Shown here: positions 3,494-33,190 of the stretch, piece after piece | Layout: the number at the start of each line of letters is the position of its first letter | Numbering within the stretch: position 1 is the stretch's first letter | Assembly (NCBI GenBank): GCA_036609835.1 | Contig: GCA_036609835.1_4358.1 | Reading direction: 5' to 3' (one strand) | DNA from: a phage | DNA: 44,717 nucleotides | The notes under the pieces: model-generated | Database searches by the model: none | Told to the model about the DNA's origin: nothing | What the model saw: only the letters and a program-made list of their open reading frames with translations | Made by a program: the position numbers and the translations under genes

Positions 3494-4005
3494 GTGGTCA
3501 ACAGGCCGCGTAATAACGGTATCTCTTTAGGTGTCATCAGTATACCAGTGCTTCGCTGGTTCAGCATAGGTGTACCAACATCCGCGGAGAACTCGCCCTT
3601 CTCCTGATTAATGGCCTGTAACTCGTACACGACAGGGCCGTCAGCCGGGTAAGACAGGTCAGTGCTGACGTAACGGCGGAATATGAACTTCGGTAACTCG
3701 GTATTACTCATCGGGATTTTATCCATCTCATCATCCAGTTGATTGAGAATATCCGGCAGAGTGAATGTTGTCGTCTGGTCCATATCACTGTTGTTAGCCG
3801 CCCCCGACGCCTCCATCGGGGTAGGTTCGAATGTGATAGTTTCGCCTGTCTCCAGTGTTGCCGTAAGTTCCTGTAGCCCGCGCACAAGATAGTACGTCTT
3901 CGACAGCAACGGGTGGCTGATTTGTAACGTAATGTAGTCCATCTCGCCGTCGGGGTTTGAGGCCAGCTTACGGCGATAGGCTGCTTCTACTGATTCCTGA
4001 CTCAT
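3490..4005 (-). CDS. Minor tail protein, 171 aa
   Basis: ORF in tail-tip block between tape measure and tip protein; coupled to neighbours. Confidence 0.45.
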   Translation of the reverse strand: MSQESVEAAYRRKLASNPDGEMDYITLQISHPLLSKTYYLVRGLQELTATLETGETITFEPTPMEASGAANNSDMDQTTTFTLPDILNQLDDEMDKIPMSNTELPKFIFRRYVSTDLSYPADGPVVYELQAINQEKGEFSADVGTPMLNQRSTGILMTPKEIPLLRGLLTT

Positions 4006-4008
4006 AAA

Positions 4009-5406
4009 TTAACCGTCCACATTAAAGTCGATACGAGTGATATATTTACTACCCCACGCAGAATTCGCTTGGGGGATGGTGGCGTAACCGTCAACAGACG
4101 GAACGTTTACCACAGAGCCGTCTGAATATGTAATATCAATGCTTGTTGCACCGTTCATTACTACTTTTGCCGATGCCATAGGGCGTGCGGATGGTGATGC
4201 GTCGGTTACTATCGGCGATGTGGCAAACGGTGATTTTTCTATTTGCATCGCGCACACTAATATACCACTAACCCCGTCACCGACAAATGAACCAACGGCG
4301 GAGTTGTTGTACACCCATGGCGCTAAAAGCAGAGAAGACGCGCCACCCTGGCGTATAGCTACCGTTTCTGTAAATCGATACCAACCATTACCAAGCTCTG
4401 CTATATCGCTGCCGAGGGCGCCTGCGTAAATAACCCCTGTCGATAAGTTAGCAACACAATCCGCGATAAACCCAGCATCATCAGCGGCGCGAAGTCTCGC
4501 ATAATTATAACCATAGGCCTTAGCAACGTAACTGAGAGTGTATACATCACCCTCCGCAAAAGCGGAAGACACCGATTGATATACGAGATGGCTGTCGTTT
4601 GTCTGGTTCGGGACTAGCGAGAACGTACCACCGTTTAGAAATCCGTCAACTGCATCCGACACTGTTGTTCTAGTTTTAGTCCACGATGCGTCAGATAATT
4701 TCGACGATTTAATCAGGATATTACTGGACGCGGATTCCGGCGGAACACGTCCAACAGCAACCCCATCAATAAACGTAAGAGGCCATACATTAGCGGCGGA
4801 CTGCACAAGATTGCCGTTGCGGTTGATGTAATAAACCTGCGGCGCGTCATACACAATGCGGCTATCAAGAGTCGACGCCAGAAGGTTAATCGGTTGATAC
4901 CCGGCAGGCCCTTCATTGCTCCAGATGCGCGGGAACGTTGTCTCATAGTTCGCGTATATTTTCAGGAAACTGCCCAGGCAATCACCATAACAGCCATACA
5001 AATCTGGCAGATTGTTAATCAGACACTGGTTCTCGAGGTCCTGGAACGGTGATTTCTCAGCGGTTGCCGTGAAAGTAATTGTCCAGTTAATCCCGTCTTC
5101 AGTGGACTCGGCGACGGTGGATGTAATGGTGACTTGATAATCCTCAATACCCATGCCGAAGTCGTGCGCCATCCAGAAACTTGACGCGCCACCATCGACT
5201 TTCTCAAGGAACGACAGAAACGCCTGCCGCCCCATTGCGGATGTAATCAGGGTTACGCTTATTGGGAACACATCATAATACGTGTCACGGCCCTGACGCA
5301 CCCCGCCACCCGCTAAATCGACACTCCAGACGTTGTTACGTCTGGTCATTGAGTAGCCTTTTGATACCACCGGCTTAAGGCTACGTGGGAAATATAATTC
5401 GGTCAT
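4009..5406 (-). CDS. Minor tail / distal tail protein, 465 aa
   Basis: ORF immediately downstream of tape measure; start overlaps tape measure stop. Confidence 0.5.
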   Translation of the reverse strand: MTELYFPRSLKPVVSKGYSMTRRNNVWSVDLAGGGVRQGRDTYYDVFPISVTLITSAMGRQAFLSFLEKVDGGASSFWMAHDFGMGIEDYQVTITSTVAESTEDGINWTITFTATAEKSPFQDLENQCLINNLPDLYGCYGDCLGSFLKIYANYETTFPRIWSNEGPAGYQPINLLASTLDSRIVYDAPQVYYINRNGNLVQSAANVWPLTFIDGVAVGRVPPESASSNILIKSSKLSDASWTKTRTTVSDAVDGFLNGGTFSLVPNQTNDSHLVYQSVSSAFAEGDVYTLSYVAKAYGYNYARLRAADDAGFIADCVANLSTGVIYAGALGSDIAELGNGWYRFTETVAIRQGGASSLLLAPWVYNNSAVGSFVGDGVSGILVCAMQIEKSPFATSPIVTDASPSARPMASAKVVMNGATSIDITYSDGSVVNVPSVDGYATIPQANSAWGSKYITRIDFNVDG

Positions 5407-15527: not shown

Positions 15528-16577
15528 TTAAGCACCGACACCAGTTACCAGGAAGGCAATCGGTACGTGCTTACGGTCAACAACACGGTTCCAGTTGGAG
15601 GCGTTCGCCAGGTCCTGCCAGGAAGCAGAACGTGCGACAGTCTCGGTGCCGTTACCGGTGATTACTGCGCTGGTGAAGCTGTATCCCAGTGGGTGCAGTA
15701 ACCAGGTCTTACGGGTCCACAGGGTTTCTACACCACCGCCGTTGCCTCGGGATGGTTCGCGCTCGTATTCCAGCGGGTTGGACGGAGAACCTTCACCGTA
15801 ACCGATAGCGCCGTTGCCGAAGATGACGGAGATGAACTTACGGTCATTACCAGTACCGACTACGGTCATACTGTCGTCAACAATCACGCGGTAGCCCTGG
15901 TAGGTGGCGAACATGGTGTTGTTGTCAGCGTCTTTGATGAAGTCAATAAGCTGCTGCTTACGGGCCTGCGCATAAACGAAGCTATGCATCGCGATAGCGC
16001 CTAGCACTTCACCGCCGTTGCCCATCAGCGCATCACCCATAGTCTGGGTAGCGTCGATGAACGCGCCCGCATCGAAGCCCAGAGTAGCAGACACGTCGAT
16101 AACCATGTCGTTCTGCTCGTGGTAAGCATCGGTAGCAGCTACGTTGTCGTTGTACAGACCGAGCGCGGTAGCAATCAGACGGCGTTGTGCCTGGCGCTGC
16201 CAGAAGTTATCCAGACGGGACGCTACGGATTGCAGCGGGTTCTGGCTGGTCAGTTCGACAGTCAAATCCGCCTGACCGAAACCTTCGTTCAGGTATGCAA
16301 CGCGGGCCATCATCTCACCGGTCTGCACGTTACGCGGGGTGGCGATGTCCTGGTATACGTCGTTCGAGTAGTTCGGCTCGATAGAGGTATCAATCGCTTT
16401 CCAGAAAGGAATATTAGCGACGTTGGACGGGCCGCGGGCAATCTCGGCGGCGTATGGGGTCGGGGTGAGAATACCAGACTGGAAGAACGCGGTTTTTTCT
16501 ACCGGGTCCTCGGTCATATAAGACGCCAGGACCGGGATGTTGCCAGTTACGATATCGCCGATAGTGGTAATTGCCAT
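15528..16577 (-). CDS. Major capsid protein, 349 aa
   Basis: ORF after scaffold gene, followed by attenuator hairpin; size and position typical of an HK97-fold capsid protein. Confidence 0.7.
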   Translation of the reverse strand: MAITTIGDIVTGNIPVLASYMTEDPVEKTAFFQSGILTPTPYAAEIARGPSNVANIPFWKAIDTSIEPNYSNDVYQDIATPRNVQTGEMMARVAYLNEGFGQADLTVELTSQNPLQSVASRLDNFWQRQAQRRLIATALGLYNDNVAATDAYHEQNDMVIDVSATLGFDAGAFIDATQTMGDALMGNGGEVLGAIAMHSFVYAQARKQQLIDFIKDADNNTMFATYQGYRVIVDDSMTVVGTGNDRKFISVIFGNGAIGYGEGSPSNPLEYEREPSRGNGGGVETLWTRKTWLLHPLGYSFTSAVITGNGTETVARSASWQDLANASNWNRVVDRKHVPIAFLVTGVGA

Positions 16578-16579
16578 TA

Positions 16580-17281
16580 TTATTTCCTCAGGGCTTTAAG
16601 TTGCCGTTCAAATTCGGCAGGGTTCGATTTATACAGGGCTAAACGCTCTGCTTCACTCATGTCTTTAAACGCTGGTGCGGCCCCGCCGCCTTTGCTACCG
16701 GAAGCCCCGCCGCCGGAAGCTGCATTTGCTTTGATCAAATGCGAAAACGCCTTGTGTTCGCGCAGGTATTTGCGGAACTGTTCCGGGTCAGTCGTGATTA
16801 CGTTACCGTCTGCACCAACAAACTTAGTAACCACATCATCGCCTTCGAACTCAGTCTTAACGAACGGCGCAAGAATGTCCACTGCTTCTGGGGTAATAAA
16901 GTCACCCGCGAAAGAGCCTAGCACCGCTTTACGTTCGCTGCCGAGGATACGCTCTGCCATTCTGGAGATGCGACCGTCTTTCTCGGCTAACACCGGGTCA
17001 TACTGGCTACGAATCGTCTTTTCGAACTCATCCATCTTACCAGCGGCTTTTAACGCCTCCTGGTGCGCGCGCTGCCGTTCTTCTTCGGCCTCTTTTGCTT
17101 TGCGAGCGGCTTCTTTCTTCTCCGCCAACAATGCTTCCTGATTAGCCTTAAGCCCGGCAACTTCTTTCTCAATCAGCGCCTGAACTTCTTCAGCGGTGAA
17201 CATTTTCGGCGCGTCACCGCCACCAGCTTTATCTTCTGCCCCAGCTTCTTCCTGGAACGGATAACGTAAAAAACGATTCAT
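16580..17281 (-). CDS. Scaffolding protein (putative), about 234 aa
   Basis: Charged alpha-helical sequence (EKKEAARKAKEAEEERQRAHQEALKAAGK) immediately upstream of capsid gene; ATG 17281 chosen. Confidence 0.55.
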   Translation of the reverse strand: MNRFLRYPFQEEAGAEDKAGGGDAPKMFTAEEVQALIEKEVAGLKANQEALLAEKKEAARKAKEAEEERQRAHQEALKAAGKMDEFEKTIRSQYDPVLAEKDGRISRMAERILGSERKAVLGSFAGDFITPEAVDILAPFVKTEFEGDDVVTKFVGADGNVITTDPEQFRKYLREHKAFSHLIKANAASGGGASGSKGGGAAPAFKDMSEAERLALYKSNPAEFERQLKALRK

Positions 17282-17363
17282 AGTCAGTATGTCCCCTGGA
17301 CGTTGGAACCCGGGCCACCCGGATTTACATGTCAAGAATAAATTATTCCAACATGCAAGGCAA

Positions 17364-17627
17364 CTATTCCAGAATATTCCTCACATAATCCTGCAACTGG
17401 AATACTTTCAGACGCAGTTGCCGCACGCATTCGGCGTTCTGAACGTCTATAGCCAAATCCTCGTCAGCATCGCTACTTGGCGCTGCCAGTTTGCACGGAG
17501 GCTGCATCATCGTCGTATCCGGTAATGGAATTAGCGTTTGCGACGGCGCGGGACTTGAGCAGGACGCGAGCATCGTCAAAAGTGCACACGCTGCGACCAG
17601 GCGTTTTAATGTACTTAACGACTTCAC
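17364..17627 (-). CDS. Outer-membrane spanin (Rz1-like lipoprotein), 87 aa
   Basis: Lipobox LTMLASC then Pro-rich SSPAPSQTLIPLPDTTMMQPP; starts inside the i-spanin gene in another frame and extends past its end. Confidence 0.65.
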   Translation of the reverse strand: MKSLSTLKRLVAACALLTMLASCSSPAPSQTLIPLPDTTMMQPPCKLAAPSSDADEDLAIDVQNAECVRQLRLKVFQLQDYVRNILE

Positions 17628-17859
17628 GGGTAATCACCTCTGATTTCGTCTTGCCTTCGTTGTCAGCGGCGGCGGCCTTTGATTCATCCTGCTGCTGCCG
17701 TTGTGTTTTCTTCGCTAACTCAGCCTGTACTTTCTGCTGTTGCTGCGAAACGAGATTCGCCCGGCCTTCGTTCCAACCGCTGCGATACCGGTAGATGCCG
17801 TGTGTGTAAGCCAGGATGATGAAACATGCTCCTGCCACGACAGTTGCTTTAAGATTCAT
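17473..17859 (-). CDS. Inner-membrane spanin (Rz-like), 128 aa
   Basis: N-terminal TM helix ATVVAGACFIILAYTHGIY, then Gln/Lys-rich coiled coil; overlapped by Rz1-like ORF. Confidence 0.65.
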   Translation of the reverse strand: MNLKATVVAGACFIILAYTHGIYRYRSGWNEGRANLVSQQQQKVQAELAKKTQRQQQDESKAAAADNEGKTKSEVITREVVKYIKTPGRSVCTFDDARVLLKSRAVANANSITGYDDDAASVQTGSAK

Positions 17860-18179
17860 GTTTCCCCCTTTCTCGATAAGTAAAGCCCCGCCTTAAAGCG
17901 GGGCGCTAGTCCTTATCATTTAAACATAGAAACGGCGTAATCTCAGTAAACCCGTTACTTTTTACACAAGCAATAGAGTATGGCCCTTCCGAACGCGTCA
18001 GCGTAACTACACTCAGGACTTACGTCCCGCTCCGTTACCTGCCCGCGCCGCGGTCGCTTGTTCATACTTCACAAGCTCAGGTGGAGCTTATCATATTTTT
18101 AGTGAAAAGTCAACTATTCGAATAGTTTATTCCAACATTTACAATTCGGAGGAATAACTGGAATACGTAAATAAATAGT

Positions 18180-18208
18180 TTGCACACCCCAATATAATAG
18201 GGTACTAT
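18180..18208 (+). promoter_or_regulatory. Sigma70-type promoter TTGCAC-N17-TACTAT, near-identical to the one at 8627
   Basis: ttgcacaccccaatataatagggtactat followed by AAACAGGAGG RBS and ATG 18236. Confidence 0.6.
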
Positions 18209-18235
18209 TCAGTTAACTTAAACAGGAGGTGAAAA

Positions 18236-18439
18236 ATGTATGCAATTTGCGAAGTAGTTCAAGAGTTCGATGAAGAGTTCGACGGTGACTTGTGCCGGGT
18301 TAAAAAGGTTCTGCAGGTTTTCCCTGACGCAATGTCTGCTTACAAGGCATTAGATATATTTGAACCTGGAAGATACGGGGATTATGACACTGTTCTGAGG
18401 GTTGTCCATGAGCAGGATTTAAACACAAGATTCCGTTGA
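18236..18439 (+). CDS. Hypothetical protein, 67 aa (moron)
   Basis: Opposite strand to flanking head genes; own promoter, strong RBS and downstream terminator; acidic. Confidence 0.6.
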   Translation: MYAICEVVQEFDEEFDGDLCRVKKVLQVFPDAMSAYKALDIFEPGRYGDYDTVLRVVHEQDLNTRFR

Positions 18440-18440
18440 A

Positions 18441-18470
18441 AACTAAGGCCCCTTAATGGGGCCTTTTATC
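18441..18470. terminator. Bidirectional rho-independent terminator
   Basis: aaactaaggccccttaatggggccttttatc. Confidence 0.65.
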
Positions 18471-18930
18471 ATTCTGGTTTAGCGACCTTCGCCACTTTAC
18501 TGACGGCCTCTACGCCACCGGCATCGGTAACTTTAACGAAGTATTCACCAACTGCATTAACCGTCAGAGACAAGGCCTCTTCCGGGGCGTTTACCACTTC
18601 CTTACCGTCTTTGTACCAGGTCAGAGCATACGGTTCTTTACCCGCCTTAACTTCGACAGTGATAGTTGCGCTGCCATCTGTAAGTTCAGTGTCTTTCGGT
18701 TGCACAGAGAAATACACGTCACCAGCGTCCGCCAGATACGGAATTTCATAAAGCATACCCGCGGCAGAGAGTGCGATACCTGTCTTGTCTGCAAACGGCA
18801 TATCGTCTACTGGTGTACCGAGTACACTTTCATCTTCAATAAACACCACGTTCTCGCCAGAGCCAGACACGCGGGCGTACTGGACTACGCGACGCGACGG
18901 TACATCAGTTACTTTGAAAAAGCCCATCAT
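18469..18930 (-). CDS. Ig-like domain protein (putative head decoration), 153 aa
   Basis: ATITVEVKAGKEPYALTWYKDGKEV...GEYFVKVTD resembles an Ig-like fold. Confidence 0.45.
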   Translation of the reverse strand: MMGFFKVTDVPSRRVVQYARVSGSGENVVFIEDESVLGTPVDDMPFADKTGIALSAAGMLYEIPYLADAGDVYFSVQPKDTELTDGSATITVEVKAGKEPYALTWYKDGKEVVNAPEEALSLTVNAVGEYFVKVTDAGGVEAVSKVAKVAKPE

Positions 18931-19973
18931 TATTCCCCTTTCAGATAATCAGCAACACGTTTATCGAGTTCCGCCATCTGCTTAAGCGTGAGCGGATTCC
19001 CGAAACCATCTACAGATATTACGCGAAACTCTTCCGGCGATATACCGCTGTTACGGAAAATCTTACCTCGCACCGGGCCGAGGGCCTGGTCCTGAAACCA
19101 CGCCGGTTGTTGTTTAAGGAACTCGTAGTAAGTGGTGTCTGCGCTTACCTGGGTTCCACCTTCTGCGCCCTTAGCTGCGCGTTTTGCGCCCTTATCGAGG
19201 AAGTCGAACTCTGAACTGATTACCGGTGCCGTGGTACTTCTGCACCCAAAATGGGCCGGAGGCATCGGCCCTTTACCGATTTCCCACATCATTCCGTCTC
19301 TGGCCCTGCAAATCGTGCTGGTACGGCTGTCCAGCGTTGATACCCACTCGTACCTATCGATGATGTCGTCGTTCTGGCGGTACGTCTCGTTGCGGGCTTC
19401 GTTGGACACGTGAGACAGCGCAGTACGGATTACTGTAGCTGCATGTTTCTCTGATACGTCAGCCAGCCCGCCTTTACCGACTACTTCTTTAACAATCTGC
19501 CGTGTTGTCTTGCCCTGAACAAAGCCCATCTTAACGCCGGTGACCAGGCGCGCCACCTCCGCTTCACCCCAACCTGACATCAGCTTGGTGAAATCAACGG
19601 GCTTGTCGCTCAATGATAATGGTTGAAACTCGGCAGCGGCCCATACCTGCTCAGCGGTAGGCGTAACAAATTCCGCGTCTACGTTGGCGGTCAGTGTCTT
19701 TACGTTCCACTCAGCCTCATACGCCGCCAGTTCCTTAAGGTCTTCTGTCAGCTTTGTCTGCCAGTCGCCCGTAAGCCCCACCAGTGCTTCTTCAAGGTCG
19801 CGTAACAATTTATTCAGTCGGGCAGTGCTTCGCCCGTCGTCACCGAATAACAGCACCTGCCGTTTTATTTCGTCCCGCATCTCCTGAATGAACGGTGCTA
19901 GGTCTTTCACTTCACCAGATGCGGTGCGTTGCAGCCAAATCTGGTGGCTGATTAGTGATGTCAGTAAGCTCAT
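18930..19973 (-). CDS. Minor head / head morphogenesis protein (Mu F-like), 347 aa
   Basis: Position after portal; C-terminal STICRARDG...PPAHFGCRS Cys/His block typical of this family. Confidence 0.6.
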   Translation of the reverse strand: MSLLTSLISHQIWLQRTASGEVKDLAPFIQEMRDEIKRQVLLFGDDGRSTARLNKLLRDLEEALVGLTGDWQTKLTEDLKELAAYEAEWNVKTLTANVDAEFVTPTAEQVWAAAEFQPLSLSDKPVDFTKLMSGWGEAEVARLVTGVKMGFVQGKTTRQIVKEVVGKGGLADVSEKHAATVIRTALSHVSNEARNETYRQNDDIIDRYEWVSTLDSRTSTICRARDGMMWEIGKGPMPPAHFGCRSTTAPVISSEFDFLDKGAKRAAKGAEGGTQVSADTTYYEFLKQQPAWFQDQALGPVRGKIFRNSGISPEEFRVISVDGFGNPLTLKQMAELDKRVADYLKGE

Positions 19974-20115: not shown

Positions 20116-20769
20116 ATGAAACTGCAAACATTAGAGTTCCCTTATGGAGAAATCACTTTTGACCGTGAAAACTTTATTAACGTAAACGAGCTGGTTGACC
20201 AGATGAACCGTTGGCGTTTAGACAACGGCATGGGGGCCAGAGAGCTTCGCCAGGTCATGGCAACGGATGGCTTCAAGATTTTCAAGGAGGAATGCGAAAA
20301 ACAACTCGGAATCGAGAATGCCATAAGGGCGACGAAAGGCCGAAACGGTCGCACCTTTGCATGTCTCCATCTGGCAGTATATATTGCTGAGCAATACAGC
20401 GCCTATTTCCATTTCCTCGTTATCGACCGCTTTATCACACAACGGCAGGTAGAACTACGAAACATTGGCGCGGTGAGCTTTGTCGAGCTTAACGCTGCCG
20501 TTAGTCGAATGATCGAGCGCACGGAGGGAAGAATTGGCCACAGTGGACACTTCATACAGGTGGCTAAAGCGGTAAAGGAATCCGTAGATATCCGCGACGT
20601 AACGGGTTTCGATACATGGGACTCTCAGGATGCGAAGACCAATCAGTTGCGAAGTGACATCCAGAAAGCTCTGGTGACGCTTCTTGACATGGAGGCCGTT
20701 AATACATGGGGTGAACTGAAAGAGGCGATACCTCGGGTTGTGCGTAAATGTGCGGCTAATATACGTTAA
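20116..20769 (+). CDS. KilA-N-like domain protein (putative), 217 aa (moron)
   Basis: KGRNGRTFACLHLAVYIAEQYSAYFHF resembles the conserved KilA-N core; own promoter/operator and terminator; opposite strand to portal and head genes. Confidence 0.45.
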   Translation: MKLQTLEFPYGEITFDRENFINVNELVDQMNRWRLDNGMGARELRQVMATDGFKIFKEECEKQLGIENAIRATKGRNGRTFACLHLAVYIAEQYSAYFHFLVIDRFITQRQVELRNIGAVSFVELNAAVSRMIERTEGRIGHSGHFIQVAKAVKESVDIRDVTGFDTWDSQDAKTNQLRSDIQKALVTLLDMEAVNTWGELKEAIPRVVRKCAANIR

Positions 20770-20796
20770 AACTAAGGCCCCTAGCGGGGCCTTTCT
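20770..20796. terminator. Bidirectional rho-independent terminator
   Basis: aaactaaggcccctagcggggcctttctattt. Confidence 0.65.
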
Positions 20797-24452: not shown

Positions 24453-24653
24453 TCAGCAAATATCTTCCAGTACATCGTAATTATCGCTTAGATACTGGAA
24501 TGCAGCCCCTCTTTCTACAAACTCATCGCCAATGGCGAATGTTCCATCAGAGACATCGATTAGGAGGTCATCACGCCCGATAAACTGGAATACCACCTGA
24601 CCTCCATCATCAAGAAGCGTATGCAGCATAAGTAACAATAGTTTTTTGCTCAT
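24453..24653 (-). CDS. Small acidic protein of unknown function, 66 aa
   Basis: Asp/Glu-rich (LLDDGG, DDLLIDVSDG, DNYDVLEDIC); ATGA overlap with upstream gene. Confidence 0.45.
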   Translation of the reverse strand: MSKKLLLLMLHTLLDDGGQVVFQFIGRDDLLIDVSDGTFAIGDEFVERGAAFQYLSDNYDVLEDIC

Positions 24654-24886
24654 TCCCCGCCCTCCTCTTTAGCAATACGTTGCTCTGTTTTAGTGATACC
24701 GCGGCGCGTGAATAACACCGGGCTTGTCTTAACGTGCGTCATAAGGCGGTTATTATAAATTACATGGCGCTCGCATTTCACGTCTTTGCTGTACTTCGCA
24801 ATCGTCATTTCGTTGATGCCGGTTTGCCGACATGTCTCCGCCATCGTGCCAAATTCTTTAATCAGGTTAGGAATGCTGGTAATCAT
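24650..24886 (-). CDS. Small HTH-like protein, 78 aa
   Basis: ATG 24886 in ATGA overlap with preceding small ORF; MAETCRQTGINEMTIAKY is helix-turn-helix-like. Confidence 0.45.
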   Translation of the reverse strand: MITSIPNLIKEFGTMAETCRQTGINEMTIAKYSKDVKCERHVIYNNRLMTHVKTSPVLFTRRGITKTEQRIAKEEGGE

Positions 24887-25053
24887 CCTAAGAAATTCCT
24901 CGTTGTCCACATCGCATTCGGATATTTGTTATCGCGGTCCTGCACCACGGCGACCATGTTACCACGTTGCACCAGGCAGAAGTGACGCTGTTGCTCGCCG
25001 TTGTAACGGCGCCAGATTGCTTCTTCGATTGCTGCGTTGATGTCGCTGAACAT
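24883..25053 (-). CDS. Small hypothetical protein, 56 aa (not in ORF track)
   Basis: ATG 25053 after GGGG-rich RBS; stop overlaps next start. Confidence 0.3.
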   Translation of the reverse strand: MFSDINAAIEEAIWRRYNGEQQRHFCLVQRGNMVAVVQDRDNKYPNAMWTTRNFLG

Positions 25054-26269: not shown

Positions 26270-26768
26270 TCAACCTTTCACCGCGCGCCCAATAGCCTCA
26301 GCCTCTTGCCACGGTTTACCGTCGAACAGCGCCAGACGACCGGCGGTACGACGACGCAGGCCTAGTAACGGTTTGCCGTTCTGGTTGATGAACAGCGCCA
26401 GCTTAGCCCGCAGCGTTGCAATATCACCAGAACGCAGTGCCTTACCCGTGCCGGTAGTAGCAGCAATCACACCAGCACCTGCGTTATACACCAGGTCGCA
26501 CACTGCATCGAACTGTGCCTGTGTCAATGAATGGTGTGCTGCTGCGTCAACCGCAGCTACGGCCTTAGCCATATCACGATTAAGTAACAGGAGGCCTTGT
26601 CCTGGAGTGATGGTCTGCCCCGCCTTAACATGCGGGCCATAGCTTCCATACCCAATAGTCAGGTACTTCTCGTTCGGTGTAGCGCGATACGCGGTTCCGC
26701 GGAATCCCTCGAACGCGGCGGTGAATTTGATGCCATTATCTGAAATGTTTCGAGACACGCTTATGTCC
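26270..26768 (-). CDS. Endolysin, T4-lysozyme-like glycoside hydrolase (GH24-type), 166 aa
   Basis: GTG 26768 with GGAGGA RBS; NGIKFTAAFEGFRGTAYRATPNEKYLTIGYG catalytic-region signature. Confidence 0.75.
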
Positions 26769-27008
26769 TCCGTACGACAGCCACGCCTGACGAATCTGGC
26801 GCAGCGCAACTAAAGTGATTAATGTCTCAGGCAGCGTAGGTGACATGCTGCCCTGTAACAGGTGGATACATCCGGCGGCGCAGACAATAGCTGTCAGGAT
26901 ATAGAGCACCCGGCCAAATAGCCCGTCGTCAACGCTGGGATGATACACATTAAACAGCGATGTGCTCCCGATTGCGAGCATACCACCAAACCAGAATAAC
27001 TCATTCAT
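26736..27008 (-). CDS. Two-TM membrane protein (holin/antiholin-like), 90 aa
   Basis: ATG 27008 (ATGAATGA overlap with upstream stop) after GGAGGTGG; two hydrophobic helices. Confidence 0.5.
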   Translation of the reverse strand: MNELFWFGGMLAIGSTSLFNVYHPSVDDGLFGRVLYILTAIVCAAGCIHLLQGSMSPTLPETLITLVALRQIRQAWLSYGGHKRVSKHFR

Positions 27009-27309
27009 TACCACCTCCGCGACGTGCGATGTATTCTCCGGCGACAATGCCAGAGAGACGGGAATAAATTGGCATCCAGAGAATGGCAATGATGAATCCA
27101 AGGCCCGCTATTTCGCGTTCACCTGCGATACCGAACCATTGAGCGGCGAGAGGCGCACCGAATACGGCGCACGCAAAGCCAGTGGCGAGAAAACAGAGAG
27201 CATCGACAGGGCCGGTAATAGTGGCTTTGTGTTGCCGTAAGCCTATTACCCCACCAGCTAATGCGGCAGCGAGAAGCCACCCCGTCACTGTTTCAGTAAA
27301 TTTATCCAA
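27001..27309 (-). CDS. Holin (putative, 3 TM), 102 aa
   Basis: Three hydrophobic segments and charged C-terminus RRGGGNE; directly upstream of endolysin. Confidence 0.6.
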   Translation of the reverse strand: MDKFTETVTGWLLAAALAGGVIGLRQHKATITGPVDALCFLATGFACAVFGAPLAAQWFGIAGEREIAGLGFIIAILWMPIYSRLSGIVAGEYIARRGGGNE

Positions 27310-29867: not shown

Positions 29868-30225
29868 GATAATAGTTACGTTGCCGTTGTGATTCTTCGG
29901 GGAGGGTTGTGCCTTTATTCTTATTACTTGGTAACTAAAGGGCAGGCTTAAGCCTGCCCAATAATCGTTACATTTTTACGGTTGCGAATCTACGGCACAT
30001 TAAGAAACAGTAGATATTTCAGCGGGTTACTTCTTTAAATGAGATTTAGATACACTTATCCATAAACCCCAAGGCAAGCATCTCAGCTGTCTGGGAGGGG
30101 TTGACGAATCCCTCGGGGAGGGTTCGTCAACTCCGTAATATATACAAGTCCCAAAACCATTATACAAACATGTGTCAAGAACTTTCAATAACATTTTTGT
30201 AAAGATTAAATATTACAGAGATTGG

Positions 30226-30254
30226 TTGCTTTTACATTCCCGCTATCCTATACT
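30226..30254 (+). promoter_or_regulatory. Rightward early promoter TTGCTT-N17-TATACT
   Basis: ttgcttttacattcccgctatcctatact about 30 nt upstream of ATG 30286. Confidence 0.45.
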
Positions 30255-30285
30255 CAGTTTCACCAAACAAACAGGAGATATAAAA

Positions 30286-30468
30286 ATGTCGCATTATATG
30301 ACGCAGAATGAAGTAGCTGAACGTATCGGGGTGACACGTCAGACAATTAATAACTGGTTGCGCAGCGGCAAATTCCCTGACTGCTGTATTAAGGTTATGG
30401 GCCGCCGTTTACCGGGAACATTTGACCGTAATAAAGTCGAAGCATGGATTAAGGAGAACGTGAAATGA
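30286..30468 (+). CDS. Small HTH DNA-binding protein (AlpA/excisionase-like), 60 aa
   Basis: ATG 30286 after AAACAGGAGA; MTQNEVAERIGVTRQTINNWLRSGKFP is a classic HTH. Confidence 0.6.
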   Translation: MSHYMTQNEVAERIGVTRQTINNWLRSGKFPDCCIKVMGRRLPGTFDRNKVEAWIKENVK

Positions 30469-30824: not shown

Positions 30825-30953
30825 ATGACAAAGTTAATAGTTCCACAGCTACGCCGCCAGAAACACGGCGCTGACTTCTTCGCACCGGTAAAGATGAACC
30901 GCGCAATGCGCCGTATGCAGGAAGCCTTAGAACGTGCGGAGAAAAAGAAATGA
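30825..30953 (+). CDS. Small basic protein, 42 aa (not in ORF track), coupled to primase-helicase
   Basis: ATG 30825 after AAGGA; stop overlaps primase ATG (ATGA). Confidence 0.3.
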   Translation: MTKLIVPQLRRQKHGADFFAPVKMNRAMRRMQEALERAEKKK

Positions 30954-33190
30954 ATATTGTTTTTGCAACGCTGCGCAACACATTCGATAAAAACCCTGTA
31001 GCGCGTGAGATGCCGCTCGAGCAGTTTGTGGAGTATGTCTGCGATACATCGAAGCGTTTATCCGTGGATCCGTCGTGGTCTAAGGAAGAGTACGACGCTG
31101 CCAAGATTAAGCAGAAAGCTATTGCGCCTGTTGGGGGTCGCCGTAAAAACGCTATCCTGGAAGACAGTGTGGTTAAGTTCGATTTTGACCATCTCAACCG
31201 TACTCAGTACCGCGACCTGACACGCAAATTCAAGAACGCGCCGTTCTTCAATATTCTGCACACAACGGCATCGCATCAGCACGCATGTAAAAACGGAGAT
31301 TACGCTTTCCGCGTTCTGGTTCCGGCTCGCACGCCGTTTAACTCTAACGACGCGTGGATGGTCCAACGGGCTATTTGTGCAGAGTTAGAAATAGATGAAG
31401 CCTTGCGTGACCACTGCACGGAAGACGGCAACCGCCTTATCTATCTGCCACATAGAGAGTCAAAGATAACGGTTACAGAAGGGCGTGTTATCCGTGCTGA
31501 GCGGTACATCAAGAAAGCCGAAGAGATGGGGTTGCGTAAGCGTGAGGCTAAAACACTTGCCGCTGATGAGCATGGGCTTAACGCGGATATAGCGCATTTC
31601 TGCGAAGCCGAGCTTGGCCTTGACGCTTTATCTTCCGGGCGCGGGTACGAAGTCCCATGCCCTAACGAACATCTGCATACAGGCAAAGGCTCCACAAGCA
31701 TCATGCTTGATGGTAAAGAAGTGCGCTTTGTGTGCCAGCATACAAACAACGGCGCTTGCACCGAGCTTAACCGCCGACAGCATTTGGCCCTGCGTATGTG
31801 CGGCCTGCCAGACGAGCTTAACGTAGACAAGCAACCTATCAGTATTAACAGCATTCGTGCGGCTCTGCCTGATTTACCGGATGAAGAGATTGAAGAACTG
31901 CACCGCACAGAGAACGAGGAGCCTATAACTTGCAGCCTCGACGACCTGGAAGACGACGAGGACTCAGAGGAGGACGAGTTACCGGAGCCGGTAAAGGCTG
32001 ATTTCGTCGTTGAGGGGTACATGCCGTCGGATTGTATCTGGGATATCGTCGGTGAGTCTGGCACGTACAAATCATTCTATACGCTGGGGATGATGTATCT
32101 CAGCGCCGCCGGGTACCGGTTTGCAGGCGCTGATACCCAGCGTTGCCACCATTTCTATATTGATGGTGAAGGTGGTGCAGCTACACGCACACGTATCGAT
32201 GCGCTCGCGGCTAAATATGGCGAGGAAGGTAAAGATTATGTACATGTCATCGATATAGGCGAAATACTCGCTACGCATGGTGATAAAAAAATTCCAGCTC
32301 TAATCCGCAGGATGCGCGAAACCGCAGGGGATGAACCTATTGGCATGGTTGCCTTCGACACCCTTAACCAGACGCTGGCCCTGACGATTGATAAGTTCGA
32401 CGAGAACAGTTCATCAACGGCAATCGGTATGGGTAAAGTTATCGCCATCCTGAAAGAAGTGCGCGATGCAACTAAAGCCGCTGTCGGTGTCGTTCACCAT
32501 ACTCCGAAGGGCGGAAAGAAAGCCCGCGGCAGTGGAGCATTGTATGCGGGTGTCGACGTGGAACTGACGATTGAACGTGCAACCGACCGTCAAATAAACG
32601 TATACCACTCGAAATTTAAGCACGGTCCGCAACAGAAGACGGTTGGCATGGTACTGGAGTCTGTACAGTTCCGTGAAGCACCGCCGCCGAAAGAGTACCG
32701 CGCGGTTGAGTTCCTCGGTAGCACAGAGGAATACGGCACAATAGTAAACCTCGACCTGCCTGAGCCGCACAAGGCGCTTGTATTGATGCCGTGGGGCTTC
32801 GAGCCATTCAAGACCGACGAGGAGAAAGAGCGGGAAGAAGGGTTGACGAAAGAAGGTAAGCAAAAAGTAAAGGAAGAAGTTAAACGCGGCAGGGATGAAG
32901 TAAGGAAGGAGTCAATACTTTCGGCACTGGAAGACCTGCAACAGTCAGATGACACAGGTCGCGGTTTTACTCAGCAGCAGATAGTGGCTCGTTCCGGTGA
33001 CTTCTCTGTGACTAACACCCATCTTGATAAAATGTTGAAAGATGGAGAACTAATGCTTGGTTGCGATGCTAACGGCGAAGTAGTACCGAGAACATATCGT
33101 ATACCCGAAAGAATAGGGGATAGATTAAGGCCGAAGACACTATACGAACCAAATGAGATGCTGGTGGTGACAGAGGAGGATTTGGAATAG
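30950..33190 (+). CDS. Primase-polymerase (AEP-type) fused to RepA/DnaB-like helicase ATPase, 746 aa
   Basis: DxD (KFDFDHL) and sxH (TTASHQH) primase motifs; Walker A GESGTYKS and Walker B MVAFDTLNQ. Confidence 0.7.
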   Translation: MNIVFATLRNTFDKNPVAREMPLEQFVEYVCDTSKRLSVDPSWSKEEYDAAKIKQKAIAPVGGRRKNAILEDSVVKFDFDHLNRTQYRDLTRKFKNAPFFNILHTTASHQHACKNGDYAFRVLVPARTPFNSNDAWMVQRAICAELEIDEALRDHCTEDGNRLIYLPHRESKITVTEGRVIRAERYIKKAEEMGLRKREAKTLAADEHGLNADIAHFCEAELGLDALSSGRGYEVPCPNEHLHTGKGSTSIMLDGKEVRFVCQHTNNGACTELNRRQHLALRMCGLPDELNVDKQPISINSIRAALPDLPDEEIEELHRTENEEPITCSLDDLEDDEDSEEDELPEPVKADFVVEGYMPSDCIWDIVGESGTYKSFYTLGMMYLSAAGYRFAGADTQRCHHFYIDGEGGAATRTRIDALAAKYGEEGKDYVHVIDIGEILATHGDKKIPALIRRMRETAGDEPIGMVAFDTLNQTLALTIDKFDENSSSTAIGMGKVIAILKEVRDATKAAVGVVHHTPKGGKKARGSGALYAGVDVELTIERATDRQINVYHSKFKHGPQQKTVGMVLESVQFREAPPPKEYRAVEFLGSTEEYGTIVNLDLPEPHKALVLMPWGFEPFKTDEEKEREEGLTKEGKQKVKEEVKRGRDEVRKESILSALEDLQQSDDTGRGFTQQQIVARSGDFSVTNTHLDKMLKDGELMLGCDANGEVVPRTYRIPERIGDRLRPKTLYEPNEMLVVTEEDLE

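What the first reader, a model, noticed from the sequence alone, without database searches (positions are those of the whole stretch)
17364..17859. Rz/Rz1-like spanin pair located inside the head-gene cluster, about 9 kb from holin and endolysin
An i-spanin-like ORF (N-terminal TM helix plus coiled coil) overlaps an o-spanin-like ORF with lipobox LASC and a Pro-rich domain, between the scaffold and head morphogenesis genes. The holin, second membrane protein and GH24 endolysin are at 26270..27309 in a different transcription unit. Spanins unlinked from the rest of the lysis cassette, and embedded among virion genes, suggest independent late regulation of the final lysis step.
Basis: partly seen in the sequence, partly recalled or inferred. 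Interest (0 to 1): 0.5.

Follow-up and report, generated by a model that had tools for sequence, protein, structure and literature searches.

The report
Known spanin pair among head genes
The two overlapping genes are this phage's outer-membrane-breaking lysis proteins (a spanin pair), and their position among head genes, far from holin and endolysin, is an already published, conserved trait of this phage group, not a novelty.

Summary
ORF 17473..17859(-) is an inner-membrane spanin and ORF 17364..17627(-, GTG start) is an outer-membrane lipoprotein spanin. They overlap by 155 nt in the +1 frame and lie 8.4 kb from the holin/holin/GH24 endolysin genes.

It is not new. The window is a Kagunavirus-like Guernseyvirinae phage. 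The pair belongs to the "Jersey" overlapped spanin family of Kongari et al. 2018, with the same 155-bp overlap and the same Cys45/Cys67. The separation from holin/endolysin was stated for the Guernseyvirinae-like phage Schulenberg in 2019. Relatives in GenBank carry i-/o-spanin labels at this slot.

The slot (MuF-like gene, usually an Ig decoration gene, spanins, scaffold, capsid) is kept in all 53 related loci, including Dhillonvirus, Klebsiella and Serratia phages. The o-spanin frame and a lipobox-like motif are kept in all 50 scored loci.

"Independent late regulation" is not shown and spanin biology does not need it.

The more interesting by-product lies upstream. A conserved promoter-like site, a roughly 200-nt leader with a covarying three-helix core and a long hairpin sit directly before the i-spanin start. 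Rfam has no match. Its function is unknown.

The parts
17473..17859 (-). i-spanin gene (128 aa): N-terminal TMD at residues ~5-23, helical periplasmic domain, invariant periplasmic Cys92
   Evidence: ORF list. phrog_2536 E=6e-54. Hydropathy. AF2 helices 3-84 and 94-107 at low confidence. Alignment with 7 relatives, including a Dhillonvirus, shows C92 and the ITxEVVKY motif conserved.
17364..17627 (-). o-spanin gene (87 aa, GTG start): lipoprotein signal with lipobox LASC (Cys23), Pro-rich linker, Cys45, Cys67, conserved C-terminal helix-like segment
   Evidence: phrog_1267 E=2e-17. Frame open with a lipobox-like motif in all 50 scored relatives. GTG/ATG interchange at the start codon. Third-position bias 0.092/0.032/0.255 in the non-overlapping part. 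Invariant P44-C45 and C67.
17473..17627 (-). 155-nt overlap of the two genes (o-spanin in the +1 frame of the i-spanin)
   Evidence: Same 155-bp overlap reported for phage Jersey in PMC6139136. In the overlap, variation sits at i-frame codon position 3, which is o-frame position 2.
17864..17868 (-). Shine-Dalgarno-like GGGGG upstream of the i-spanin ATG
   Evidence: Sequence. Conserved as AAAGGRG in relatives.
17634..17640 (-). Shine-Dalgarno-like GAGGTGA upstream of the o-spanin GTG, inside the i-spanin gene
   Evidence: GAGGT kept in most relatives. An RBS is annotated at this place in phage Shashou.
17874..17918 (-). Long bipartite hairpin (GC-rich top 17885..17904 plus lower stem GAUAAG/CUUAUC), ending about 15 nt before the i-spanin ATG. 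Terminator-like, or an RNase III-type processing or stabilising hairpin.
   Evidence: Terminator scan. Conserved in Kagunavirus and Jerseyvirus with compensatory changes. Present in the MFE fold.
17977..18056 (-). Structured core (three stacked helices) of the conserved non-coding leader upstream of the spanins
   Evidence: Covariance model R1 finds one strong hit in each of 48 sources, plus one weak hit (17.6 bits, E=0.75) that I take to be chance. 11 of 21 pairs have compensatory changes; 97.9% of cells are paired versus at most 43% in slid controls, on an alignment fitted to the model. The same helices appear in the single-sequence MFE. No Rfam match.
18085..18113 (-). Sigma-70-like promoter candidate: TTGACT, 17 nt (ending in TGn), TAAGCT
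   Evidence: Sequence. The motif is present in 50 of 53 related loci. The stricter generic scan did not report it.
18120..18165 (-). Cluster A of GGAATA/TATTCC half-sites, including the palindrome GAATAAACTATTC, just upstream of the promoter candidate
17336..17404 (-). Cluster B of the same half-sites (palindrome GAATAATTTATTC abutting TTGACA). It spans the last codons of the o-spanin and the spacer before the scaffold gene.
   Evidence: These are the only two clusters of this hexamer in the window. None of 200 shuffles produced a cluster of 4. 19-nt direct repeat with cluster A. Conserved in relatives.
17310..17322 (-). Hairpin CCGGGTGGCCCGG about 30 nt upstream of the scaffold ATG (17281)
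   Evidence: Near-invariant in the Kagunavirus, Jerseyvirus, Serratia and Klebsiella loci examined, with single-base variants in three Jerseyvirus-type loci. Annotated as a putative terminator in phage vB_SenS-Ent1.
26270..27309 (-). Remote part of the lysis system: holin (27001..27309), second holin-family protein (26736..27101), GH24 endolysin (26270..26809; the real start is probably the GTG at 26758)
   Evidence: phrog_2359, phrog_2508 and endolysin PHROGs. PF00959 E=7.6e-26. ORF translations. The small ORFs downstream of the endolysin match no spanin family.

Best explanation
The two ORFs are the phage's two-component spanin, of the 'Jersey' overlapped family.

Inferred from the family's known mechanism, not shown here: the i-spanin inserts N-in/C-out in the inner membrane. 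The o-spanin is lipidated at Cys23, cleaved by signal peptidase II and sorted to the outer membrane (residue +2 is Ser). The two C-terminal regions bind across the periplasm. After the holin has released the endolysin and the peptidoglycan is degraded, the complexes fuse or disrupt the outer membrane.

The genes sit among head genes because that is the ancestral, conserved gene order of Guernseyvirinae and Dhillonvirus-type siphophages. They are most probably expressed together with the downstream scaffold and capsid genes as late genes. Lysis timing is left to the holin/endolysin cassette 8.4 kb away.
For: Shown here:
- ORFs, TMD, lipobox, residue +2 Ser, Pro-rich linker and cysteines.
- Spanin PHROG profiles at E=6e-54 and 2e-17.
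- This is the only credible lipoprotein-signal ORF in the window.
- The o-spanin frame is open with a lipobox-like motif in 50/50 scored relatives (46 distinct sequences), while the third frame always contains stops.
- The start codon switches between GTG and ATG at the same position.
- Purifying selection acts on the o frame outside the overlap.
- Invariant Cys92 in the i-spanin and Cys45/Cys67 in the o-spanin.
- No other spanin-like gene lies next to the endolysin.
- The gene order head morphogenesis gene, Ig gene where present, spanins, scaffold, capsid holds in all 53 related loci and in annotated Bas72, EcoPhCCP1, Shashou, Bas84, VLCpiS11a, Smarc3 and Ent1.
- Bas84 has the same split, with holin/holin/endolysin upstream of the terminase.

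From the literature:
- The Jersey family of 27 members includes K1G, SETP3 and SE2, with a 155-bp overlap and constant Cys45/Cys67 (PMC6139136).
- Separation of the spanins from holin/antiholin/endolysin in Schulenberg (PMC6763661).
- Spanins are ORF7/8 and holins/endolysin are ORF66-68 in Golestan (PMC7203180).
Against: - I found no experimental test of any Jersey-family spanin. All assignments, including Kongari's, are bioinformatic.
- There is no sequence similarity to lambda Rz/Rz1: no Pfam or NCBIfam hit.
- A coiled coil is not demonstrated. There is only a low-confidence monomer helix, and the periplasmic helix is very polar.
- Co-transcription with the head genes is inferred from orientation and spacing.
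- Terminator-like hairpins lie on both sides of the pair, so a separate or attenuated transcript cannot be excluded.
Confidence: 0.9

Rival explanations
1. One reading: placing the spanins away from the lysis cassette gives the last lysis step its own late regulatory control. In the version suggested by my data, that control would be the conserved promoter, leader and hairpin unit directly upstream.
For: - Hairpins at convergent gene ends (20774..20793, 18445..18465) separate the spanins from the cassette.
- A conserved promoter-like site, a structured leader and a hairpin precede the i-spanin in Kagunavirus and Jerseyvirus.
- Operator-like GGAATA palindromes flank the unit.
Against: - Whatever controls this unit would also control scaffold and capsid, which follow at fixed spacing in all relatives. 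It would be head-operon control, not spanin-specific control.
- Dhillonvirus, Klebsiella and Serratia relatives keep the spanins in the same slot without the leader.
- Spanin function needs no timing of its own (established spanin model, from my own knowledge).
- No antiterminator-like protein was found among the ten small ORFs tested.
Confidence: 0.12
2. The pair is not a spanin. It would be another envelope system carried in the head module, for example a superinfection-exclusion lipoprotein plus a membrane partner.
For: - Small phage lipoproteins can serve exclusion (for example T5 Llp, from my own knowledge).
- No experiment exists for this family.
- There is no homology to lambda Rz/Rz1.
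Against: - The full spanin signature is present: a type II inner-membrane protein plus an overlapping +1-frame outer-membrane lipoprotein with conserved periplasmic cysteines.
- It is the only spanin candidate in a genome that has a canonical holin-endolysin pair and infects a Gram-negative host.
- The spanin specialists curated this family as spanins.
Confidence: 0.04
3. The 87-codon ORF is a chance open frame inside and after the i-spanin gene. Only the 128-aa protein, or only the short 47-48-aa version annotated in some records, would be real.
For: Several public records annotate only a 47-48-aa C-terminal fragment or nothing at all. PHROG 5672 is built on that 47-aa fragment.
Against: - The frame is open from the GTG in all relatives and the lipobox-like motif is kept.
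- The start codon varies between GTG and ATG, and a GAGG Shine-Dalgarno motif lies upstream.
- The truncated version lacks any signal sequence.
- Kongari et al. report that o-spanins are very often mis-started or missed by gene callers.
Confidence: 0.01

Closest known systems
'Jersey' overlapped two-component spanin family (Kongari et al. 2018, PMC6139136): phages Jersey, K1G, K1H, K1ind1-3, SETP3, SE2, wksl3, Ent1 and others
   Same: - Same proteins: 88-97% i-spanin identity to the listed Kagunavirus phages and 59-74% to the listed Jerseyvirus phages.
- Same 155-bp overlap.
- Same constant Cys45 and Cys67 in the o-spanin.
- Same position in the genome.
   Different: Nothing of substance. The lipobox here is LASC, whereas many Kagunavirus relatives have LSAC one residue earlier and Jerseyvirus has LSGC or LNGC.
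Escherichia phage Schulenberg and Shashou annotations (Center for Phage Technology; PMC6763661, MK931440)
   Same: [quoted passage not shown] In Shashou the i-/o-spanins are annotated in the same slot before the scaffold gene, with the full 87-aa o-spanin and a lipobox note.
   Different: Different isolates. The Shashou locus is about 93% identical at nucleotide level. Shashou lacks the inserted plus-strand ORF found here at 18236..18439.
Lambda Rz/Rz1
   Same: Same functional class and the same logic: an inner-membrane type II protein plus an outer-membrane lipoprotein encoded in the +1 frame of the same DNA, both with periplasmic cysteines.
   Different: - No detectable sequence homology (no PF03245 or PF06085 hit).
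- Overlapped rather than embedded gene architecture.
- Lambda's pair lies directly after S and R in the lysis cassette, whereas this pair lies 8.4 kb away among head genes.
Other phages with spanins unlinked from holin/endolysin: P1 (ppfA/mlp) and T4-like phages
   Same: The spanin genes lie in a separate operon or locus from the other lysis genes (PMC9025707; PMC6139136).
   Different: Unrelated sequences and different neighbours. Here the slot is specifically between the head morphogenesis/decoration genes and the scaffold gene.
Lambdoid pR'-6S RNA-tR' unit and the StxS sRNA (PMC7547250), as an analogue for the upstream leader only
   Same: A promoter, a short RNA of about 200 nt and a terminator-like hairpin placed immediately before the first late genes. 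In lambda those first late genes are lysis genes.
   Different: - No Q-like antiterminator was found.
- The U-tract is weak, and the hairpin's lower stem pairs with it.
- The leader here has a covarying three-helix core.
- This resemblance is a lead from memory plus an abstract seen. It is not a tested membership.

Membership tests
Two-component spanin (functional class) | i-spanin is a type II inner-membrane protein with a single N-terminal TMD | tested here: met
   Residues 5-23 give the maximum Kyte-Doolittle 19-residue score of 1.59, preceded by MNLK, and no other hydrophobic segment exists. The AF2 helix starts at residue 3. No dedicated TM predictor was available.
Two-component spanin (functional class) | The periplasmic domain of the i-spanin is largely alpha-helical or coiled coil | tested here: inconclusive
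   The single-sequence AF2 model gives helices 3-84 and 94-107 at mean pLDDT 63. Coiled-coil oligomerisation was not tested. Kongari describes two helices plus a beta-containing linker for this family.
Two-component spanin (functional class) | o-spanin has a signal peptidase II lipoprotein signal with a lipobox Cys | tested here: met
   The sequence MKSLSTLKRLVAACALLTMLASC fits the PROSITE-type lipobox pattern. A lipobox-like L/M/I-x-[AGS]-C motif is kept in all 50 scored relatives. LipoP/SignalP were not available.
Two-component spanin (functional class) | Outer-membrane sorting: no Lol-avoidance Asp at position +2 | tested here: met
   Residue +2 is Ser. Relatives have S, Q, N, A, G or R at +2.
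Two-component spanin (functional class) | Adjacent genes in an embedded, overlapped or separated architecture, with the o-spanin in the +1 frame | tested here: met
   155-nt overlap with a +1 frame offset. The same frame relation holds in all scored relatives.
Two-component spanin (functional class) | Outer-membrane disruption: needed for lysis, and complements lambda Rz/Rz1 mutants | not testable with these tools
   This needs an experiment. I found no published test for this family.
'Jersey' spanin family (Kongari 2018) | Sequence similarity of both subunits to Jersey/K1G/SETP3-type spanins | tested here: met
   tblastn gives 88-97% i-spanin identity to the listed Kagunavirus records (including K1H and Golestan) and 59-74% to the listed Jerseyvirus records (SE2, SS3e, SETP13, AG11). 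DNA matches to K1G and K1ind2 are about 93%.
'Jersey' spanin family (Kongari 2018) | 155-bp overlap and constant Cys45 and Cys67 in the o-spanin | tested here: met
   compared with the paper's text.
Lambda Rz / Rz1 sequence families (Pfam PF03245, PF06085) | Significant match to the family profiles | tested here: not met
   No Pfam hit for either protein at E<=0.01. No relevant NCBIfam hit.
Unimolecular spanin (T1 gp11 type) | A single protein with both a lipobox and a C-terminal TMD | tested here: not met
   The only hydrophobic segment of the o-spanin is its signal peptide, and its C-terminus is polar.
Contiguous lysis cassette (lambda-type S-R-Rz/Rz1) | Spanin genes immediately downstream of holin and endolysin | tested here: not met
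   There is an 8.4-kb gap containing small ORFs, terminase, portal, MuF-like and decoration genes.

The most novel reading that the evidence does not exclude
In Kagunavirus and Jerseyvirus the spanin-scaffold-capsid genes are preceded by a previously undescribed cis-acting RNA unit. It comprises a conserved promoter, a leader of about 200 nt with a covarying three-helix core, and a roughly 20-bp bipartite hairpin about 15 nt before the i-spanin ATG. GGAATA-palindrome operator-like sites flank the unit.

This unit would gate or process transcription into the spanin-plus-head operon, by termination/antitermination or by RNase III-type processing. The short RNA might also act as an sRNA. Spanins and head proteins would then have a control point separate from holin and endolysin.
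Probability: 0.25. Interest if true: 0.5.

Novelty: already known. Interest (0 to 1): 0.12.

Why it matters
As a spanin finding it matters little. It confirms an existing annotation and a gene order already recorded for this phage group.

Two practical points follow.
- Many public records and PHROG 5672 carry a truncated o-spanin of 47-48 aa that lacks the lipoprotein signal. Automated annotation of these therapy-candidate phages therefore under-reports the real gene.
- The head-module position is older than Guernseyvirinae, because Dhillonvirus shares it. Spanin placement is thus an inherited feature of the genome backbone, not a regulatory innovation.

The upstream structured leader is the only element here that could open a new question, namely how late head and spanin expression is controlled in a widely used group of therapeutic coliphages and salmophages.

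Tried and rejected
- Pfam and NCBIfam scans of both spanins gave no meaningful hits. Only PHROGs recognise them.
- Single-sequence AF2 of the i-spanin gave only a low-confidence helical model. I ran no further search on a deeper alignment because the verdict does not depend on it.
- My first lipoprotein scan had a bug: it took only the first lipobox match and returned nothing. It was corrected.
- One o-spanin alignment used a wrong frame for L042 and was corrected.
- I looked for a second spanin or disruptin among the small ORFs downstream of the endolysin. None was found.
- Ten small ORFs were scanned for a Q-type antiterminator or an obvious late regulator. Only an HTH_17 protein (30172..30468) and a sub-threshold NinH-like hit (24650..24910) turned up.
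- Rfam at gathering threshold over the whole window, and at permissive threshold over 17800..18500, gave nothing credible. No tRNA was found.
- Covariance model R1 found no copy of the leader core in the Dhillonvirus, Klebsiella or Serratia loci, and no second copy in the window.
- The 36-aa ORF 17955..18065, annotated as hypothetical in relatives, was rejected as a gene. An 11-nt deletion removes its ATG in Jerseyvirus while the RNA helices covary.
- The spacer between the o-spanin and the scaffold gene was rejected as a clear sigma-70 promoter. TTGACA is present but no acceptable -10 element follows.
- The 'amidase' label of 20116..20769 was rejected as evidence for another lysis gene among the head genes. 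Only PHROG 6095's name supports it. Pfam gives a sub-threshold KilA-N hit, and NCBIfam and PDB sequence searches give nothing.

Full report
**What the window is.** The 6-kb stretch around the finding matches 487 phage records. The best matches are Escherichia phages EcoPhCCP1, Bas72 and Bas73 at 92-95% identity, and many Salmonella Jerseyvirus phages match at about 85% or less. The window is therefore a Kagunavirus-like member of Guernseyvirinae. Its minus strand carries, in transcription order:
- small ORFs, two holin-family genes and the endolysin (27309..26270)
- more small ORFs, then terS, terL and portal
- a plus-strand ORF at 20116..20769
- the MuF-like head morphogenesis gene (19973..18930) and an Ig-domain decoration gene (18930..18469)
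- a roughly 600-nt stretch
- the two ORFs of the finding
- scaffold (17281..16580), major capsid protein (16577..15528) and the connector and tail genes.

**Check of the observation.** Both ORFs are present exactly as described.
- The 128-aa product has one hydrophobic segment, at residues 5-23 after MNLK.
- The 87-aa product starts with GTG and reads MKSLSTLKRLVAACALLTMLAS|C. It has a basic n-region, a hydrophobic core, the lipobox LASC, Ser at +2, and a mature part of 65 aa with 7 prolines in its first 28 residues plus Cys45 and Cys67.
- The genes overlap by 155 nt with a +1 offset.
- PHROG profiles call both 'Rz-like spanin': 6e-54 for the i-spanin and 2e-17 over residues 8-86 of the o-spanin.
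- Of 1207 start-to-stop candidates of at least 40 aa in all six frames, only this ORF and one antisense ORF pass a simple lipoprotein-signal filter. The signal is therefore not what chance supplies.
- The two holin-family genes and the GH24 (PF00959) endolysin are confirmed at 26270..27309.
- No spanin-like gene follows the endolysin.

**Are both frames real genes?** I fetched 47 related loci from IMG/VR and several annotated GenBank loci.
- In all 50 loci that could be scored, the o-spanin frame is open and has a lipobox-like motif: LASC, LSAC, MSAC, LTSC, LSGC, LNGC, MTGC or ITGC. These comprise 46 distinct sequences.
- Its start codon is GTG in most loci and ATG in a few, at the same position. 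A GAGG Shine-Dalgarno motif lies upstream, and the third frame always contains stops.
- In the part of the o-spanin gene that lies beyond the i-spanin stop, nucleotide diversity by codon position is 0.092/0.032/0.255. That is the signature of purifying selection on that frame.
- In the overlap, variation sits at i-frame position 3, which is o-frame position 2. There the i-spanin C-terminus is the more constrained partner, and the signal peptide and Pro-rich linker absorb the changes.
- Across relatives as distant as a Dhillonvirus, the i-spanin keeps Cys92 and the motif ITxEVVKY...R..C.F..RV..K. The o-spanin keeps P44-C45, C67 and the acidic stretch D53, D55, D57-L58 and D61-V62.
- A single-sequence AF2 model of the i-spanin is a long helix (3-84) plus a shorter one (94-107) at low confidence. 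This is compatible with a helical periplasmic stalk but does not prove a coiled coil.

**What is already known.**
- Kongari et al. 2018 (PMC6139136) list a 'Jersey' family of overlapped two-component spanins with 27 members, including Jersey, K1G, K1H, K1ind1-3, SETP3, SE2, wksl3 and Ent1. They state that the Jersey genes overlap by 155 bp and that Cys45 and Cys67 of the o-spanin are constant. The window matches all three points.
- Golestan's spanins are ORF7/8 and its holins and endolysin are ORF66-68 (PMC7203180).
- Phage Shashou is annotated with an i-spanin and a full-length lipobox o-spanin in exactly this slot.
- Unlinked spanins are also known from P1, and T4-like phages do not cluster their lysis genes.

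The finding is therefore correct but already known.

**Gene order in relatives.**
- In all 53 related loci the i-spanin lies after the MuF-like gene (and the Ig decoration gene where present) and before scaffold and capsid, all on one strand.
- The spacing from spanin to scaffold is essentially fixed in the Kagunavirus and Jerseyvirus loci. The distance from the Ig gene to the i-spanin ranges from 268 to 1121 nt.
- The same slot is used in Klebsiella phage VLCpiS11a, in Serratia phage Smarc3 and in the Dhillonvirus Bas84.
- In Bas84 the i-spanin start overlaps the end of the head morphogenesis gene, and holin/holin/endolysin again lie upstream of the terminase.

The arrangement is thus an inherited backbone feature of a broad group of 40-45-kb enterobacterial siphophages.

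**How it most likely works.**
- Inferred from the established spanin model (my knowledge; Berry 2012 and Rajaure 2015 are listed among the references of PMC9025707): both subunits are made during late infection, bridge the periplasm through their C-terminal regions, and are held inactive by the peptidoglycan mesh. When the holin triggers and the endolysin removes the wall, the complexes fuse or disrupt the outer membrane.
- Under this model spanins need late expression but no timing of their own, and a place in the late head operon supplies that.
- Shown here: sequence features, conservation and synteny.
- Inferred: localisation, complex formation, function and co-transcription.

**The regulatory claim.** Pattern scans give some support for a transcription unit separate from the lysis cassette.
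- Symmetric GC hairpins sit where convergent genes meet, at 20774..20793 and 18445..18465.
- Upstream of the spanins there is a conserved stretch shared by Kagunavirus and Jerseyvirus.
- However, scaffold and capsid follow the spanins directly. Any control exerted here is control of the head operon, not of 'the final lysis step'. Relatives without this stretch keep the spanins in the same place.

**By-product: the conserved upstream unit (minus strand).** It has four parts.

1. Half-sites. Two clusters of GGAATA/TATTCC half-sites, each with a palindrome GAATAAnnTATTC, lie at 18120..18165 and 17336..17404. They are the only clusters of this hexamer in the window, and none of 200 shuffles produced a cluster of 4. 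They share a 19-nt direct repeat, and they bracket the leader plus the spanin pair.

2. Promoter-like site. TTGACT, 17 nt ending in TGn, then TAAGCT, lies at 18113..18085. The motif is present in 50 of 53 loci.

3. Leader of about 200 nt.
 - The 36-aa ORF annotated in it in some relatives loses its ATG in Jerseyvirus.
 - Its core, 17977..18056, forms three stacked helices. A covariance model built on nine Kagunavirus-type sequences gives one strong hit in each of 48 sources. These include Jerseyvirus at 36-44 bits. There was one further weak hit, probably chance, and nothing in the Dhillonvirus, Klebsiella or Serratia loci.
 - On the resulting alignment, 11 of 21 pairs show compensatory changes, and 97.9% of cells are paired against at most 43% when partners are slid. 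The caveat is that the alignment is fitted to the model.
 - The same helices appear in the single-sequence MFE fold, with z = -2.3.

4. Bipartite hairpin of about 20 bp at 17874..17918.
 - Its GC-rich top and its lower stem both change in a compensatory way between the two genera.
 - It ends about 15 nt before the i-spanin ATG.
 - Its U-tract is weak and partly paired, so it may be a leaky terminator or an RNase III-type processing or stabilising site.

Rfam has no match, and one literature search turned up no description. The layout recalls lambdoid pR'-6S RNA-tR' in front of the late genes, but no Q-like protein was found among the ten small ORFs tested. The function remains open.

**Verdict.** The spanin pair is real, ordinary for its phage group and already described, so its interest is low. 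The upstream RNA unit deserves a separate look.

Noticed in passing
window 17977..18056 (-), within the leader 17875..18084: Conserved non-coding leader upstream of the i-spanin with a three-helix core. Covariance model R1 gives one strong hit per Kagunavirus or Jerseyvirus locus, and 11 of 21 pairs are compensatory. There is no Rfam match. It is a candidate new cis-regulatory RNA or phage sRNA.
   Followed up: partly
window 17874..17918 (-): Bipartite hairpin of about 20 bp ending roughly 15 nt before the i-spanin ATG. Its top and lower stems both covary between Kagunavirus and Jerseyvirus, and its U-tract is weak. It could be a leaky terminator or an RNase III-type site.
   Followed up: partly
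window 18120..18165 and 17336..17404 (-): The only two clusters of GGAATA/TATTCC in the window, each with a palindrome GAATAAnnTATTC next to a TTGAC element, sharing a 19-nt direct repeat. They bracket the leader plus spanin unit. They look like operator or activator sites for an unidentified DNA-binding protein. Cluster B constrains the last codons of the o-spanin (…RNILE*).
   Followed up: partly
window 17310..17322 (-): Hairpin CCGGGTGGCCCGG about 30 nt upstream of the scaffold ATG. It is near-invariant even in the Serratia and Klebsiella relatives, whose surrounding sequence differs. It is annotated as a putative terminator in vB_SenS-Ent1. Such strict conservation suggests a binding or processing site.
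   Followed up: partly
window 18170..18468; related loci L001-L053: The stretch between the Ig decoration gene and the conserved promoter is a variable slot. The distance from the Ig gene (or the MuF gene where there is no Ig gene) to the i-spanin ranges from 268 to 1121 nt among relatives. In the window the slot holds a plus-strand 67-aa ORF (18236..18439, weak hit to phrog_27256) ending at a symmetric hairpin 18445..18465 that is shared with the convergent Ig gene.
   Followed up: partly
window 20116..20769 (+): This ORF is labelled 'amidase' in relatives through phrog_6095 (E=9e-121). It has no amidase support elsewhere: only a sub-threshold KilA-N Pfam hit, and nothing in NCBIfam or PDB sequences. 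The label is probably wrong. The gene sits on the opposite strand between the portal and head morphogenesis genes.
   Followed up: partly
L001 5365..5511, L002 4401..4544; PHROG 5672: In Pharokka-style annotations (Bas72, EcoPhCCP1) the o-spanin is truncated to 47-48 aa starting at Met40/41, so it lacks the lipoprotein signal. PHROG 5672 is a 47-position profile of that fragment. Some records annotate no o-spanin at all.
   Followed up: yes
o-spanin residues 17-25 in window and loci L007-L041: Kagunavirus o-spanins come in two lipobox registers, …LTMLASC-SSP… and …LTLSAC-SSSP…, which shifts the lipidated Cys by one residue. Jerseyvirus uses LSGC or LNGC.
   Followed up: no
NC_073314.1 (Escherichia virus fEg-Eco19), hit H99: The i-spanin match there stops at residue 117, occurs in two places, and lies next to an annotated HNH homing endonuclease. 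An endonuclease may have inserted at or in the spanin locus.
   Followed up: no
L004/L054 (Bas84) 3932..4373: In this Dhillonvirus the i-spanin start overlaps the stop of the head morphogenesis gene by 8 nt. A minus-strand ORF is inserted between the o-spanin and the scaffold gene.
   Followed up: no
window 32414..32632 (-): This is the second and only other ORF that passes the crude lipoprotein-signal filter (MRTVLKFRVVYVYLTVGC). It lies antisense inside the 746-aa gene 30950..33190 and is probably a chance match.
   Followed up: no
window 24650..24910 (-) and 30172..30468 (+): Two small putative DNA-binding proteins. One is an 86-aa ORF just upstream of terS with a sub-threshold NinH-like hit. 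The other is a 98-aa HTH_17 protein. Either could be the factor that binds the GGAATA palindromes. This was not tested.
   Followed up: no
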